Source of the DNA: an uncultured virus (IMG/VR IMGVR_UViG_3300032069_000750)
Lineage: Duplodnaviria; Heunggongvirae; Uroviricota; Caudoviricetes
Virus record (IMG/VR): IMGVR_UViG_3300032069_000750
Length of the DNA: 20,000 nucleotides
Strand: one strand, 5' to 3'
Notes under the pieces: model-generated
Told to the model about the DNA's origin: nothing
Seen by the model: only the letters and a program-made list of their open reading frames with translations
Database searches by the model: none
Translations under genes and position numbers: made by a program
In this document: positions 1 through 20,000 of the stretch, piece after piece
Numbering within the stretch: the stretch's first letter is position 1
Layout of the letters: each line of letters opens with the position of its first letter

Positions 1-471
1 CCTATTGAACTATACAGATACAAGTCACAGAAATCTTTCCATTGCAGTTTTGAATGCAGAAGATCAAAACCGATAAACTGTGATTGGTGTGGAAAAGAAT
101 TTAGGAGACGACCAGCAAATAAAAAAGCACATAATTTTTGCTCAAAGAATTGTGAACTTGAGTGGCGATCAGAAATTATGAGAGGAAAAAACAATATAAA
201 TTGGTCTGGTGGATTATGGAATGGTAATTATGGACCAAATTGGTATAAACAGAAGAAAAAGGCGAGAGAACGGGATAAATATATGTGTCAAAATTGTGGA
301 ATTACAGAGGAAAAATACGAAAAAGCCCTTGATGTTCATCACATAGAACCGTTCATAAAATTCGGATTAAAAAGATATGAAGAAGCAAATAAATTAGAGA
401 ATCTCATATCTGTCTGCAATCCTTGTCACAGTAAGATTGAACCCAGAAGGAGAAAAAATGAATATAATTAG
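1..471 (+). CDS. HNH endonuclease with N-terminal Zn-finger repeats (5' truncated by window)
   Basis: Frame 1 is open from base 1: FHCSFEC..NCDWCGKEF..NFCSKNC, then RDKYMCQNCG..LDVHHIEP..NLISVCNPCH. Confidence 0.88.
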   Translation, partial: PIELYRYKSQKSFHCSFECRRSKPINCDWCGKEFRRRPANKKAHNFCSKNCELEWRSEIMRGKNNINWSGGLWNGNYGPNWYKQKKKARERDKYMCQNCGITEEKYEKALDVHHIEPFIKFGLKRYEEANKLENLISVCNPCHSKIEPRRRKNEYN

Positions 472-2377: not shown

Positions 2378-2484
2378 AAACATACGCGGTTTGACTATTG
2401 CGTTCGATTACACAACCTTTTTCAGCATCGTTTTCCAGTTCCTTTTTTTGTCGCACGACTAGTACTAATGACTACGATTTTTTT

Positions 2485-2575
2485 AGTAGTGAGCAATAAT
2501 CGTGAGCAATAACGATCACCAATAGTAACTATTAATAGTGGCTACCAATAGCGACTATCAGTAATGATCACCAAT
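2485..2575. repeat. Seven degenerate 13-bp tandem units
   Basis: agtagtgagcaat/aatcgtgagcaat/aacgatcaccaat/agtaactattaat/agtggctaccaat/agcgactatcagt/aatgatcaccaat. Confidence 0.85.
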
Positions 2576-2688
2576 ATCGGCGAGGCCGCCGACCGACACT
2601 ATCGACCAGCACAGGTTTCTCTTAAATTTATCTATTTTTTGGGATTATCGCCAAAATCTTAATATAATAGAAAGAATACAATTATATT

Positions 2689-3366
2689 GTGGAAAAAATA
2701 AAAAAGGGCCGTATCCTAGAAACAGGGGCCGTAATTACCATCTTGCTTCTCGCGTCGTTAGGGGCGAGCATCACTTTTGTCTGCGGAAAACCGTATGCAG
2801 TGACCGAAAAAAACCGCCAGCCATCAGCGACAGAAAACATCACCGAGATGCAGGGAGACATCCTCATCAAGAAAACCGGATTCAACCGTTTGTACCCCTC
2901 GATAGAGATACCAGACAACCAGCTCCTCAACGTCACGGCGACCACAGTCGGCGACTTTTTCTACGTCAACTCGGTGCTACGGATCCGCATTGACACGCAT
3001 CTGCTGGACCCGGGTTTCACGTACAAAATAGGGAGGCACCTGAGGACATTCATCGCCATCACCAGGCCGGAGTACTCCTTCCTGGGAAAAATCGTCGGCA
3101 AGCCTGTTAACTACAACCGGAGCGATTTTCTTTCGGGGGCCACGACCATCGACGTCCCTCTCAAATTCAAGTCGACGGAGAACTATGAGGAATTCAGAAT
3201 CAGGATACTCGCAGTCGGGAGCATCATCGGTGCCTTTTCATTGAGTTATCCGTCAATTACTTACAAAATTCTCGATTTCAAATGTTGCTACGTTCAACCC
3301 CCAACAGATACAACTCCCCCTTTTACTTCATGTTATCTACATGGCAATGAGATATATCCAGGATAG
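2689..3366 (+). CDS. Secreted beta-rich protein ending in an orphan Ig-type strand (DTTPPFTSCYLHGNEIYPG)
   Basis: GTG start just downstream of TATA-like cttaatatata; basic N-terminus plus hydrophobic signal; C-terminal motif shared with the next gene. Confidence 0.8.
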   Translation: MEKIKKGRILETGAVITILLLASLGASITFVCGKPYAVTEKNRQPSATENITEMQGDILIKKTGFNRLYPSIEIPDNQLLNVTATTVGDFFYVNSVLRIRIDTHLLDPGFTYKIGRHLRTFIAITRPEYSFLGKIVGKPVNYNRSDFLSGATTIDVPLKFKSTENYEEFRIRILAVGSIIGAFSLSYPSITYKILDFKCCYVQPPTDTTPPFTSCYLHGNEIYPG

Positions 3367-3404
3367 ATAACAAAAATATGGTACACGATTTGGAGGCACA
3401 AAAA

Positions 3405-3845
3405 ATGAAAGCAAACATAAGCAAAAAACAAAAGGCAGGTATCATCGCAACCCTGTTGCTGGCTGGAAGCATCATCGGGCTTTCAACAACAACTCTCGCA
3501 CACCCACCACAACCATCCAAAGATGTCAGGATGTTCCAAGGGAATGTGACCGTCTCGCTGAGTGCGATTGACAACGACTCGGGGGTAAACTATACTGTCA
3601 TCAGTGTATGGTATAGGTCACTAACGTCCCATAACGCTTCTTGGACACTTCTGTTGGCTCCAACGAACTACACTGGGAACATCACGTACTCAGTTCAAGG
3701 TCAGTACCAAGTGCATTTCTACTCAGTAGATAAACTTGGGAATGTCGAAGCTGAGAAGTATGCGGATTTTGCCCTGTGGCAAGATAACACATGTCCATAC
3801 ACGCAGATAACCCTAACGGGGAATGAGATCTTCCCAGGCAAGTAA
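3405..3845 (+). CDS. Secreted single OmpL47-type/Ig-like domain protein with displaced first strand
   Basis: GGAGG RBS then ATG 3405; signal peptide ..TTLA|HPP; NVTVSLSAIDNDSGVNYT..G.Y.VHFYSVDKLGNVE; C-terminal DNTCPYTQITLTGNEIFPGK. Confidence 0.85.
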   Translation: MKANISKKQKAGIIATLLLAGSIIGLSTTTLAHPPQPSKDVRMFQGNVTVSLSAIDNDSGVNYTVISVWYRSLTSHNASWTLLLAPTNYTGNITYSVQGQYQVHFYSVDKLGNVEAEKYADFALWQDNTCPYTQITLTGNEIFPGK

Positions 3846-3856
3846 CACAACTAAAG

Positions 3857-3929
3857 TAATACACTGGGTGAAAAGAAGTTCCCTTTCCTCCGCCTTTTTC
3901 CCTCATCCGGTGTATTATAATTTTTTTTT
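3857..3929 (+). terminator. 3' UTR stem-loop followed by a T-tract
   Basis: taatacactgggtga (3857-3871) pairs with tcatccggtgtatta (3903-3917) using two G-U wobbles on the + strand; T-run follows. Confidence 0.7.
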
Positions 3930-3982: not shown

Positions 3983-4056
3983 ACGTGTACATTGATGTGC
4001 AACATAAATGTACACGAGGTATGTGCACACTAATGTACAACATTGATGTTGCACAT
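3983..4056. repeat. Six quasi-palindromic units (ATGT-n3-ACAT type) at 12-13 bp period
   Basis: Units start at 3983, 3995, 4008, 4021, 4033, 4046; atgtgcaacat (3995) is the reverse complement of atgttgcacat (4046); directly upstream of the TATA of the radical SAM gene. Confidence 0.8.
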
Positions 4057-4092
4057 AAAGTTTTTAATATATCATTCTCTATATAATAAAAC

Positions 4093-4959
4093 ATGAAGGT
4101 CGCTGTCATACGAGTGGATGGAAAGCTAGCCAATTTAGCGCTAATGAAGATCTCCAGTTGGCACAAGAAACAAGGGGACGACGTGGTGCTCGTGGATCTC
4201 TCCGGCATGGAATTCGACCGGATATACGCGTCCCAGGTGTTCGCGGGCGGGTCCGGCTACGACCTCGAGGCGAAGCTCCCGGACGAGATCGAGCACTGCA
4301 AGCCGGACTACGATTTGTTCAACGCCGACTACAGCATGGGGTTCACGAGCCGCGGATGTGTACGGAACTGTAAATTTTGTATCGTTAGAAGAAAAGAGGG
4401 GAAGCTACAAGAGCACTCACCCTTCAAGGAATTTGTCGACAACCGGTTCCAGAAGATCATCCTCATGGATAACAACTTCCTCGCAAGCCCGAAGGCCAAT
4501 GAGAATCTCCACACTATCATCAATAAGAAGTGGAAGGTAAACTTCAATCAGGGACTCGACCTCCGGCTGATCAACGATGAGAACGCCGAGATCCTCAGCA
4601 GAGTGAAGTACTACAACTGGACGTTTTCGAGGAGGCTTATCCATTTCGCGTGGGACAGCATGAAGGACGAGGACGACATCATGGTCGGGCTCCAAACCCT
4701 CCTGAATTACATCCCGTCGCACCACATCATGGTGTACGTCCTGGTCGGGTTCGATACTGGACTGGTACAGGACCTGTACCGTATAAAAACGCTCGCGGAT
4801 CTGAAAGTGAAGCCGTTCGTCATGATCTACAATAACAAGAGAGATCCCAAGCTCCGACACCTCAGCCGATGGGTGAACAAACGGTACTACGAGGTCGTCA
4901 CCTGGGAGGAGTACCTCAAGAAGAAGATTTCGGTTAAGCACGTTAACCGAAAGTCTTAA
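4093..4959 (+). CDS. Radical SAM protein, phage/mobile-element type
   Basis: SRGCVRNCKFC (CxxxCxxC), NLALMKISSWHK, DNNFLA, FNQGLD, VYVLVGF motifs. Confidence 0.92.
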   Translation: MKVAVIRVDGKLANLALMKISSWHKKQGDDVVLVDLSGMEFDRIYASQVFAGGSGYDLEAKLPDEIEHCKPDYDLFNADYSMGFTSRGCVRNCKFCIVRRKEGKLQEHSPFKEFVDNRFQKIILMDNNFLASPKANENLHTIINKKWKVNFNQGLDLRLINDENAEILSRVKYYNWTFSRRLIHFAWDSMKDEDDIMVGLQTLLNYIPSHHIMVYVLVGFDTGLVQDLYRIKTLADLKVKPFVMIYNNKRDPKLRHLSRWVNKRYYEVVTWEEYLKKKISVKHVNRKS

Positions 4960-14029: not shown

Positions 14030-14668
14030 CTAGCCTAGCGGGTTGTCGAAGGTCGCGTACACCGTCCTGTTGCCGTTCATCGTTATGGCCGCGGGGTTGG
14101 TCGTGCCAGTGAGGTCCCCGGACCATTCCATGAAGCACCATCCAGGGTCCCCGGTCGCGTTTAACAGGACGGAGGTACCCGAGGAGTAGCTCGTCTGCTG
14201 CGGTTTTTTAATGACTGATCCTTTTCCCACCACGATTATATCTAGGGTGTACTGGTGGGTGAGGTTTCCTTGTTGGCCCCCTAGGTCGGGAGTCAGTTTC
14301 ACCCAGTGGGACGTATGTCCCTCGCAATAGTAGAAGTTCCACTGGCCGGTCGTCGCGTTGTACTCGTACTCCACATACGGGGGGTTGGTCGAATTGTTGC
14401 CGTTGTTCCCCCCAGGCCTGAAATTGAACCGCGCCATGTAGTCGGTGACGTTTTCCATATTCTCTGTACAAACCTTGAATGCCTCAGCGGCAGAGTCAAA
14501 GGATGCCTTAAACTGTGTCGTCATATTGCCCATCGCCAGTGCCACTACTGAGACCAAAGGCACCATGATGGATATCATCATAAGGGTCCCTAACACGGTG
14601 GACACTCCGGTTTTGTCGTTACGCAGCTGCCTTATTTTGTTGTTTGCTTTCATATTTTTTTCCTCCAT
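14030..14668 (-). CDS. Archaeal type IV pilin-like protein with C-terminal InlB B-repeat-like domain
   Basis: Class III signal RNDKTG|VSTVLGTLMMISI; C-terminal YTL..G.GSV..Y..GT.V.L.A....GW.F..WSGD..NP..ITMNGN.TV.ATF. Confidence 0.85.
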   Translation of the reverse strand: MEEKNMKANNKIRQLRNDKTGVSTVLGTLMMISIMVPLVSVVALAMGNMTTQFKASFDSAAEAFKVCTENMENVTDYMARFNFRPGGNNGNNSTNPPYVEYEYNATTGQWNFYYCEGHTSHWVKLTPDLGGQQGNLTHQYTLDIIVVGKGSVIKKPQQTSYSSGTSVLLNATGDPGWCFMEWSGDLTGTTNPAAITMNGNRTVYATFDNPLG

Positions 14669-19170: not shown

Positions 19171-20000
19171 ATGACGAAAAAGGAGCAAGAAAAGATGAAA
19201 CGAAAAGAGAGAACGAAAAATAGGCTACTGGTCTACATCTTGGTGCTCGCGACCGCGCTTCTGGTGGTCTCGTCCGTGAGCGCGATCCCGTACACCCAAG
19301 GGAGCGAAATAAGAAAGATGAATATCTACCAGGAGAAAATCGACAGGATACTGGACAGCCGGGTCTACAAGCGGCTGAAGAGCCTGGTCGACCCCATGTA
19401 CAACAACACCTATAACGCGACACAGAGGGCGCACATCAGATCCGCGATAGAGGCGAACATCACGGCGGCGTTGCCGAAGCTGGACGGCCCCATGTACCCG
19501 GGTCTCGTGGAGTTCCTGAACACGATGGCGGAAGTGTTGCTGTTATTCCTCGGGCACAACATGGTGGGGGGGATCATAACATGCTCCATCATATACGTAC
19601 TCGCATTTCTTCTGAGCATCGTCATCGGGATAGGGAACGCCCCCCGGGAGATACTCGGGGGGCTCGCTATGCTGGGCGGTGCATTGTCCCAGCTGATAAC
19701 CGATGAACTCATATATGAAATCGGTTACCTCGGGGTGATCGTTTTAGGGCTGCTGCTACTGCCCGTGGTCCTGGTCCTGATCGTCATAGCGATACCCGCC
19801 AGCGTCATAGGGAGTACGATCATCGTCTTCTTCGACACGCTAAGCTACATTGTTCTCCCCGGGGGCGACCCGCCGCAGAATCACCCGCCGAATGCGCCCT
19901 TCGATCCCCGCCCTCTCGTCGGCGAGGCGATCTACCAAGAGGGGTACTGTCTGGAATGGCGCTATAGCGACCCGGACCCCAAAGACTCGGTGACCTGTGA
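19171..20000 (+). CDS. Secreted/membrane protein with multi-TM region and start of an Ig/FN3-like domain (3' truncated; not in ORF track)
   Basis: Open frame to the window end; signal ..SSVSA|IP; several hydrophobic helices; NHPPNAPFDPRP..LEW..SDPD. Confidence 0.85.
   Translation, partial: MTKKEQEKMKRKERTKNRLLVYILVLATALLVVSSVSAIPYTQGSEIRKMNIYQEKIDRILDSRVYKRLKSLVDPMYNNTYNATQRAHIRSAIEANITAALPKLDGPMYPGLVEFLNTMAEVLLLFLGHNMVGGIITCSIIYVLAFLLSIVIGIGNAPREILGGLAMLGGALSQLITDELIYEIGYLGVIVLGLLLLPVVLVLIVIAIPASVIGSTIIVFFDTLSYIVLPGGDPPQNHPPNAPFDPRPLVGEAIYQEGYCLEWRYSDPDPKDSVTC

What the first reader, a model, noticed from the sequence alone, without database searches (positions are those of the whole stretch)
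2689..3845. Candidate donor-strand-complemented surface filament: shaft subunit plus tip protein
Seen: both genes have their own signal peptides and end in the same ~20-aa motif (DTTPPFTSCYLHGNEIYPG and DNTCPYTQITLTGNEIFPGK), though they are otherwise unrelated. Known: OmpL47-type Ig-like repeats normally begin with a D-T-T-P-P-x-T-x-x-x-L-x-G strand, followed by V-T-V-x-L-x-A-x-D..SGV..Y-S-V-D-x-x-G-N-x-E. The 3405 protein has the body of that domain without the first strand and carries that strand at its C-terminus; the 2689 protein carries only the strand. Inference: each 3405 subunit donates its tail to complete the next, forming a head-to-tail polymer capped by the 2689 protein. This is conceptually like type V or chaperone-usher pili but built from a different fold. 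Both tails contain a Cys.
Basis: partly seen in the sequence, partly recalled or inferred. Interest (0 to 1): 0.88.

Follow-up and report, generated by a model that had tools for sequence, protein, structure and literature searches.

The report
Split FN3 domain plug-and-socket surface proteins
Two neighbouring secreted proteins on an archaeal-type mobile element share a short tail that is the missing first strand of the small domain in one of them, so they probably snap together outside the cell, perhaps into a bead chain, though binding was not tested.

Summary
Gene A (2689-3366) and gene B (true start 3405, to 3845) each have an N-terminal export signal and end in the same 19-residue motif (11 of 19 identical). 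Nothing else in them is alike.

B is an OmpL47-type, FN3-like domain. Its fold lacks the first 10-14 residues (strand A), and its signal peptide sits where that strand would be. In relatives of A, the same motif runs straight into a complete domain. There AlphaFold2 builds it as strand A with pLDDT above 90. So the tail is strand A, carried at the C-terminus.

B's tail is as conserved as its folded core. It is disordered in the monomer model. In 15 of 16 sequences the tail stops 6-7 residues after L-x-G, at the A-B turn.

The pair recurs in three metagenome loci, and probably in two more contigs.

The donor-strand idea is therefore structurally well founded.

The "tip protein" reading is weakened. 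Most A relatives complete their own domain in cis and have no free tail. The tail cysteines are not conserved.

Verdict: a plausible new variant of donor-strand assembly, unproven.

The parts
2657..2672 (+). AT-rich TATA-like element about 17-32 nt upstream of the GTG of gene A. It is a candidate archaeal promoter for a near-leaderless A-B transcript.
   Evidence: Direct repeat D5 pairs it with a like element at 4076-4091, just upstream of the next gene's ATG at 4093. The promoter role is inferred.
2689..3366 (+). Gene A (225 aa): N-terminal signal or anchor, a beta-rich body of no named family, and the strand-A tail. This is the short form of the A family.
   Evidence: ORF. No Pfam, NCBIfam or PHROG family. 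Homologues P0010, P0011, the L002 gene and the long forms P0012-P0017 and L003.
3307..3363 (+). Tail of A (residues 207-225, DTTPPFTSCYLHGNEIYPG). It is the homologue of strand A of the OmpL47/FN3-like domain, with no domain behind it.
   Evidence: It aligns column for column with residues 235-253 of the long form. Those residues are a pLDDT >90 strand in the model. D, P, L and G are invariant in 11 of 11 A-family sequences.
3392..3396 (+). GGAGG ribosome-binding site 8 nt upstream of the ATG at 3405.
   Evidence: Read from the sequence. Homologues begin at the equivalent Met.
3405..3845 (+). Gene B (146 aa plus stop): signal peptide, HPPQP motif, FN3-like OmpL47-type domain without strand A, and the strand-A tail.
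3405..3500 (+). Signal peptide of B (residues 1-32). The predicted cleavage is TLA|HPPQP.
   Evidence: Small residues at -1 and -3 before [HDN]PP in 11 of 11 B-family sequences. No signal-peptide predictor was run.
3528..3782 (+). Folded domain of B (residues 42-126), strands B to G of an FN3-like sandwich.
   Evidence: AF2 pLDDT is about 75-86. VIA alignments to FN3 structures start 10-14 residues into the target, unlike the long-A domain. NF047446 hit.
3783..3842 (+). Tail of B (residues 127-146, DNTCPYTQITLTGNEIFPGK), the proposed donor strand.
   Evidence: Mean pairwise identity is 0.54 (core 0.60), against 0.58 for the domain and 0.40 for the signal peptide. pN/pS is 0.25-0.64, against 0.22-0.61 for the domain. 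pLDDT is 36-38 in the monomer.
3857..3929 (+). Inverted repeat (3857-3871 / 3903-3917) followed by a T-run (3921-3929). It is a candidate transcript end of the A-B pair.
   Evidence: Inverted repeat I5 and the T-run read. The role is inferred.

Best explanation
A and B form a two-gene operon for exported proteins built around one FN3-like (OmpL47-type) domain whose first strand has been moved. After signal-peptide cleavage, B is strands B-G of the domain, with the edge of strand B left open (the socket). A correctly trimmed strand A follows directly after strand G (the plug). In an FN3 fold the start of strand A and the end of strand G lie at opposite poles, and B has only the normal 8-residue inter-domain linker. 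The plug therefore cannot reach its own socket in the native orientation. It should instead pair antiparallel with strand B of another B molecule. That gives a head-to-tail bead chain with the geometry of a tandem-repeat adhesin stalk, but with the chain breaks shifted by one strand. Proteins that carry only the plug can occupy the one free socket at the end of a chain, so they act as exchangeable terminal subunits. These are short A in the window and a different small body in L001. Whether that end is the tip or the base is unknown. Shown here: the architecture, the homology of the tail to strand A, the missing strand in B, the conservation, and the recurrence of the pair. Inferred: export and cleavage, binding in trans, polymer formation, and the role of A.
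For: 1. B matches NF047446 above its cutoff.
2. In seven long A-family sequences the same motif is followed at once by a complete domain.
3. In the AF2 model of the L003 long form, residues 241-251 (the motif) form a strand with block pLDDT 91-93, in a hairpin with 254-265.
4. Residues 235/236-334 of that model align to whole FN3 domains from their first residue: 2vkw_A Z 10.0, rmsd 2.9, 88 aa; 1lwr 1..95, Z 9.4.
5. B's model aligns to the same chains starting 10-14 residues later. Examples: 2vkw_A 612 against 598, 7u01_A 182 against 171, 3b83_A 10 against 0, 4xed_A 12 against 0. Z values are lower, 5.4-6.5.
6. B's tail is disordered in the monomer model, pLDDT 36-38, and does not fold back.
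7. The tail is as conserved as the core in 11 B sequences, with similar pN/pS.
8. In L001 the plug of the upstream gene and B's plug keep 14 of 15 residues from the Pro on. Over the last 16 codons synonymous sites are saturated (pS 0.91, pN 0.07).
9. Fifteen of 16 tails stop 6-7 residues after L-x-G, which is the A-B turn of the long form.
10. Canonical tandem proteins align through the tail into their next repeat, for example P0061 40-141 and P0127 45-141 of 142 profile positions. L004 shows D-x-x-P-P-x-T before its domains.
11. The pair recurs in L001, L002 and L003. It probably also recurs on the contigs of P0015/P0005 and P0017/P0008, inferred from equal contig lengths.
12. B has 2-6 N-x-S/T sequons per mature protein, and NYTG is invariant. 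This fits an exported archaeal glycoprotein.
Against: No complex was modelled and no binding was measured.

The long A forms complete their own domain in cis and end without a plug. In those loci A cannot join a B chain by this route, yet B is unchanged. So A is not an obligatory partner.

Tails of short A forms in the window's clade diverge faster than the body: 7 of 19 identical against 68% for window versus P0010. This fits relaxed constraint.

Within-locus similarity of A and B plugs is only weakly above between-locus similarity: 35 of 720 permutations reach the BLOSUM score and 95 of 720 reach the identity score, and this is confounded by relatedness.

Residues 41-50 of B (HPPQPSKDV) have pLDDT 75 in the model and could cover part of the open edge.

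The alignments behind both models are shallow (9 and 11 sequences).

Nothing found here would tether a chain to the cell.

The B family is tiny. Only 3 short B-like representatives appear among the best 150 rows of a search of 1.84 billion proteins.
Confidence: 0.5

Rival explanations
1. Circular permutation. B's tail folds back on its own domain, running in the reverse direction along strand B, and B is a monomeric single-domain surface protein. A's tail would then be unrelated to B's function.
For: At the sequence level B is a circular permutant of the canonical domain. Type V pilins keep their C-terminal donor strand self-complemented before exchange (PMC13655056, passages read). Structure rows for the ESM Atlas model of B extend to residues 140-146, so that model may place the tail in an ordered position.
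Against: AF2 leaves the tail disordered at pLDDT 36-38. The linker is only the usual 8 inter-domain residues, too short to reach the far pole for the native orientation (inference from FN3 topology). This reading does not explain why plug-only proteins with two different bodies sit directly upstream and keep the same plug under purifying selection.
Confidence: 0.15
2. Common docking tag for a third partner. Both tails plug into some other strand-deficient domain, such as a host S-layer or envelope protein or another protein of the element. This would fix A and B to the cell surface. B's open edge would be covered by its own HPPQP segment, by glycans, or by that partner.
For: The plug sits on at least three different bodies: the A body, the B domain and the small L001 body. 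A solved precedent exists in phage Tuc2009, where a C-terminal beta-hairpin of BppU completes a sheet of BppA's Ig-like domain (PMC4742702, passages read). No cell anchor was found in A or B.
Against: The only strand-A-less domain of this type seen in the window and loci is B itself. B's N-terminus has three prolines in five residues, which makes it a poor substitute for a beta strand. Only 20 kb of a contig of about 67 kb could be examined, so a third partner cannot be excluded.
Confidence: 0.2
3. Evolutionary leftovers. The tails are the start of a lost next repeat of an ancestral tandem-repeat protein and have no binding role.
For: Tandem OmpL47 proteins are abundant: 5637 hits at E<=1e-3, mostly giant multi-domain proteins. 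Long A forms exist, so short A could be a truncation. Short-A tails drift faster than the body.
Against: B's tail is as conserved as the core. The stop codon sits at the same structural position in 15 of 16 sequences. The L001 plug pair keeps its residues over saturated synonymous sites. B also lacks its own strand A, which a simple truncation does not explain.
Confidence: 0.1

Closest known systems
Type V pili of Bacteroidota (FimA, Mfa1)
   Same: A C-terminal donor strand fills a groove in the next subunit, and the groove is vacated when an N-terminal segment is removed. The product is a head-to-tail non-covalent polymer with tip and anchor subunits (PMC13655056, passages read).
   Different: Type V pilins are two-domain lipoproteins, are cleaved by an Arg-gingipain, and exchange a self-complemented strand. 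B is a single FN3-like domain. It has no lipobox Cys (0 of 11 have Cys at +1). The only N-terminal removal implied is signal-peptide cleavage. No sequence relation was found.
Archaeal threads (Saci_0406, with putative cap Saci_0405) and other archaeal strand-donation filaments (cannulae, bundling/Tafi pili)
   Same: These are Sec-exported, chaperone-free filaments joined by donor-strand complementation. A neighbouring co-transcribed protein has a donor tail but no acceptor site and is proposed as the cap (PMC9715654, passages read). Others appear in the listing and the passages.
   Different: In threads the donor strand is N-terminal, the subunits have a different fold, and isopeptide bonds are proposed. 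Here the donor is C-terminal and the fold is FN3/OmpL47-type. Sequence comparison with those proteins was not run.
Tandem-repeat OmpL47-type / Big-type surface proteins (NF047446 domain)
   Same: Same domain family, and the same D-x-x-P-P-x-T...L-x-G first strand and inter-domain linker.
   Different: In those proteins each domain is complete within one chain. In B the chain break falls between strands A and B rather than between domains, and a signal peptide replaces strand A.
Tuc2009 baseplate joint BppU-BppA
   Same: The C-terminal extension of one protein completes a beta-sheet of an Ig-like sandwich in another protein. This is solved by crystallography (PMC4742702, passages read).
   Different: That joint uses a two-strand hairpin, is a heterotypic 1:1 joint inside a virion, involves no export signals, and has no potential for self-polymerisation.

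Membership tests
OmpL47-type beta-barrel domain (NCBIfam NF047446) | HMM score above the curated cutoff | tested here: met
   B residues 54-131 (155-aa numbering), E 2.1e-11, 44.1 bits against cutoff 40. A has no hit.
OmpL47-type beta-barrel domain (NCBIfam NF047446) | Canonical first strand D-x-x-P-P-x-T...L-x-G directly N-terminal of the domain, as seen in tandem proteins | tested here: not met
   In B the signal peptide and HPPQP occupy that place, and the strand is at the C-terminus. The canonical layout is seen in L004, P0120, P0131 and the long A forms.
FN3-like beta-sandwich fold | Seven-strand sandwich that aligns to solved FN3 domains over the whole domain | tested here: met
   Long-A domain: Z 8-10, rmsd 2.5-3.3, 85-89 residues, aligned from the first residue of the target. 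B: Z 5.4-6.5, aligned from target residue 10-14 onward, so strand A is missing. Both are predicted models built from shallow alignments.
Donor-strand-complemented filaments (general) | Subunit fold lacks one strand, and a terminal extension has the sequence of that strand | tested here: met
   This is shown by homology and predicted structure only.
Donor-strand-complemented filaments (general) | The strand of one subunit is inserted in the neighbouring subunit, and polymers form | not testable with these tools
Chaperone-usher pili | Dedicated periplasmic chaperone and outer-membrane usher genes in the locus, and an N-terminal donor extension | tested here: not met
   Pfam and PHROG scans of the window and locus ORFs give no chaperone or usher family. 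The donor motif is C-terminal.
Type V pili | Lipoprotein signal with Cys at +1 and an Arg protease site after a first strand | tested here: not met
   Residue +1 is H, D or N in 11 of 11 B sequences. The nearby C1 peptidase (1555-2328) has no export signal. No peptidase family was hit among the neighbouring ORFs scanned in L001-L003.
Archaeal threads (Saci_0406 family) | Sequence or fold relation to Saci_0406, and an N-terminal donor with conserved Asp | not tested
   No thread sequence was compared. The difference in donor terminus is taken from passages of PMC9715654.

The most novel reading that the evidence does not exclude
An archaeal mobile element encodes a chaperone-free, self-assembling bead chain of single FN3-like domains joined by C-terminal donor strands. 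It would be a tandem-repeat adhesin stalk made non-covalently from one small gene. Interchangeable head proteins carry only the same plug and snap onto the free socket. This would be a natural modular plug-and-socket system built from the most common extracellular fold. It would also show how multi-domain surface fibres and strand-donation pili can convert into one another by shifting a gene boundary by one strand.
Probability: 0.4. Interest if true: 0.8.

Novelty: new variant of a known kind. Interest (0 to 1): 0.62.

Why it matters
Filaments built by strand donation are known from several unrelated folds. None described in the papers found here uses an FN3/OmpL47-type domain with a C-terminal donor.

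If the chain forms, it gives a minimal subunit of about 114 residues that needs no chaperone. It also gives a direct evolutionary link between covalent tandem-repeat adhesins and non-covalent pili.

The pair could serve as a compact peptide-and-domain docking tool. It would also show that archaeal mobile elements can remodel the host surface with self-assembling cargo.

If the chain does not form, the pair is still a clear case of a domain split between gene products.

Tried and rejected
- No whole genome is held for this window.
- B-family scans of viral contigs (158 pattern matches, none confirmed) and of reference genomes (24 pattern matches, none confirmed) found nothing.
- tblastn of A and of B against 50,697 phage records found no match.
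- A PDB sequence search with the B profile gave only a chance antibody hit at E 0.18.
- Foldseek of the B model gave no match at E<=0.001.
- Foldseek of the long-A model gave only low-TM (<=0.24) multi-sandwich hits, such as the CfaE/CfaB fusion and RbmA. I do not read these as kinship.
- ESM Atlas for A gave no usable feature hit. Its structure rows had TM below 0.5 (LEA_2, ApaG, CARDB-like sandwiches) and came from a poor model with pLDDT 0.43.
- Co-variation of A and B plugs within loci was weak and is not counted as support.
- Homology of the small L001 body to the L003 gene at 4162-4521 is only 24% over 85 aa (E 0.002 in the small database; 6e-6 pairwise). It is left open.
- A disulfide lock through the tail cysteines is rejected. 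In B only the window copy has a tail Cys (1 of 11). In A the Cys is seen in the window and L002 only.
- A role for the neighbouring C1 peptidase as a gingipain-like trigger is rejected for now. It has no signal peptide, and no peptidase was hit among the neighbouring ORFs scanned in the other loci.
- Earlier notes of this scan describe look-alike split-domain ideas in phages. They were used as leads only.

Full report
**What is there**

The window holds two adjacent same-strand ORFs. A runs 2689-3366 (225 aa) and B runs 3378-3845. Homologues of B begin at the Met encoded at 3405, which is preceded by GGAGG at 3392-3396.

An AT-rich element lies at 2657-2672 and has a twin in front of the next gene. 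An inverted repeat and a T-run follow B. Together these fit a two-gene operon. That reading is inferred.

Both proteins start with a basic stretch followed by a hydrophobic stretch. In all 11 B-family sequences the residues at -1 and -3 before [HDN]PP are small. This fits signal peptidase I cleavage and a mature B of about 114 residues. No predictor was run.

**The shared tail is real and specific**

The last 19 residues of A and B share 11 identities. tblastn finds no other similarity between the two proteins.

Across the window and four related loci there are 557 stop-to-stop frames of at least 50 aa. Seven carry P-x-[TS]-x-x-x-L-x-G in their last 30 residues, and all seven are A-type or B-type genes. 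The motif occurs only twice elsewhere. One is the internal copy in a long A form. The other lies in a 57-aa frame and is probably chance.

**What the tail is**

B matches the NCBIfam OmpL47-type domain model above its cutoff. Pfam finds nothing in A or B.

The B family is small:
- 8 proteins at E<=0.01 among 86 candidates.
- Two more from loci.
- One more, P0064, from the exhaustive search. That search returned 5637 hits at E<=1e-3, but only 3 of the best 150 rows are short B-like proteins. The other 147 are multi-domain proteins of 461 aa or more.

The A family has 3 close members. A profile search brought it to 10 among 5810 candidates. The key finding is that A comes in two forms.
- Four sequences are short, like the window's: body plus tail.
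- Seven are long, 315-334 aa (two of them 98% identical). In these the same motif runs straight into a complete OmpL47-type domain that ends right after its last strand, with no further tail.

I folded the L003 long form with AlphaFold2. The motif, residues 241-251, is a strand with block pLDDT 91-93, in a hairpin with 254-265. VIA-align places residues 235/236-334 on whole FN3 domains from their first residue: 2vkw_A Z 10.0, rmsd 2.9 over 88 aa; 1lwr residues 1-95, Z 9.4. So the tail is strand A of an FN3-like fold.

A canonical giant protein (L004) and the tandem proteins P0120, P0131 and P0142 show the same D-x-x-P-P-x-T...L-x-G before each domain. Profile matches of tandem proteins run on through B's tail into their next repeat.

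**B lacks that strand**

The monomer model of B has a confident core and a short first strand. Residues 51-133 in 155-aa numbering have pLDDT about 64-86. The last 18 residues are below 50, with blocks at 38 and 36, so the tail does not fold back.

Against the same PDB chains, B's alignment begins 10-14 residues later than that of the long-A domain. For example, 2vkw_A starts at 612 against 598, 7u01_A at 182 against 171, 3b83_A at 10 against 0, and 5x83_C at 735 against 723. Z values are lower, 5.4-6.5.

In sequence, B's signal peptide and the conserved HPPQP occupy the place of strand A. Both models rest on shallow alignments of 9 and 11 sequences.

**Selection on the tail**

- Across 11 B sequences the tail's mean pairwise identity is 0.54, and 0.60 for its core. 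The domain scores 0.58, the signal peptide 0.40, and the loops 0.30-0.37.
- For the four B genes with DNA, tail pN/pS is 0.25-0.64 and domain pN/pS is 0.22-0.61.
- Fifteen of 16 tails (10 of 11 B, 5 of 5 plug-only proteins) stop 6-7 residues after L-x-G. In the long form that position is the turn between strands A and B.
- In L001 the gene upstream of B has a different, smaller body but nearly B's own plug. Over the last 16 codons pS is 0.91 and pN is 0.07, so the residues have been held while synonymous sites saturated. These counts rest on about 11 synonymous sites.

**How it most likely works**

In FN3 folds the N-terminus of strand A and the C-terminus of strand G lie at opposite poles (established knowledge). 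B has only the normal 8-residue inter-domain linker between strand G and the plug. The plug therefore cannot reach its own socket in the native direction.

Inserted into another B, it would recreate the geometry of a tandem array. Each subunit has one plug and one socket, so the product would be an open head-to-tail chain.

Plug-only proteins would occupy the free socket at one end. This is the same logic proposed for the thread cap Saci_0405 (PMC9715654, passages) and for the tip and anchor subunits of type V pili, whose donor strand is also C-terminal (PMC13655056, passages). A solved case of a C-terminal extension completing an Ig-like sandwich of another protein is BppU-BppA of phage Tuc2009 (PMC4742702, passages).

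I put this reading at about 0.5.

**What speaks against it or limits it**

- No complex could be folded.
- Long A forms satisfy their own domain and carry no plug. In those loci A cannot be a cap, yet B is unchanged.
- Short-A tails in the window's clade drift faster than the body.
- Plug similarity within loci is only weakly above that between loci, 35 of 720 permutations.
- The HPPQP segment has pLDDT 75 and might shield part of the open edge.
- No cell anchor was seen.
- The tail cysteines are not conserved.
- The rivals are cis fold-back, a third docking partner, and a relic. They are scored in their own section.

**Context**

The neighbours are:
- an HNH endonuclease, a C1 peptidase without an export signal, and a phage-type radical SAM protein;
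- a tyrosine integrase, ParB and RadC;
- a PCNA-like clamp;
- a protein with a weak archaeal type IV pilin N-terminus.

The related loci carry an integrase, a helicase, a methyltransferase, a glycosyltransferase and large repeat surface proteins. No virion hallmark genes were seen in the parts held.

The radical SAM protein's phage relatives include viruses assigned to Methanomassiliicoccales, at 33% identity. I read the element as an archaeal virus-like or plasmid-like mobile element carrying surface-protein cargo. The archaeal host is inferred and the taxon is open.

**Novelty**

The four literature searches returned strand-donation filaments of other folds, and OmpL47 only as a Leptospira surface protein. 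None describes an FN3/OmpL47-type C-terminal donor system. Supplements were not consulted.

Earlier notes of this scan report similar split-domain ideas in phages, so the theme may be wider than this family.

I rate this as a new variant of a known kind. It is structurally well argued but biochemically untested.

Noticed in passing
window 3984-4059: A dense cluster of inverted and direct repeats built on TGTACATTGATGTGCA-like units. It lies between gene B and the radical SAM gene and could be an operator or a recombination site.
   Followed up: partly
window 14030-14668 (-): A 212-aa protein with a weak archaeal type IV pilin N-terminus (Pilin_N, 19 bits, below cutoff) and a divergent InlB B-repeat domain (Flg_new_2, E 1.2e-12). 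It sits next to a PCNA-like gene and is another surface protein carried by the element.
   Followed up: partly
window 19171-19998 (+) and L001 3351-4052: A signal peptide followed by a multi-pass membrane protein of no known family. By eye it looks present in both elements. No formal comparison was run.
   Followed up: no
L002 3840-10121: A 2093-aa exported protein directly downstream of the A-B pair. It has dozens of repeats of the type GTHQSRWNS...WANYTG and a C-terminal hydrophobic anchor with a basic end. It has no Pfam family.
   Followed up: partly
L003 7535-8521: A class II aminoacyl-tRNA-synthetase-like gene (tRNA-synt_2, E 6e-26) on the mobile element, near a group 1 glycosyltransferase and a methyltransferase.
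   Followed up: no
L003 4162-4521: A small exported protein whose signal-peptide end (TAMAHEPSP) resembles B's (TAMAHPPQP). Its body is weakly similar to the plug-bearing small protein of L001 (24% over 85 aa), but it has no plug.
   Followed up: partly
window 2460-2580: An intergenic stretch upstream of gene A rich in short repeated units (GTGAGCAATAA, CACCAATA and a TAGTAACTATTAA palindrome). Its role is unknown.
   Followed up: partly
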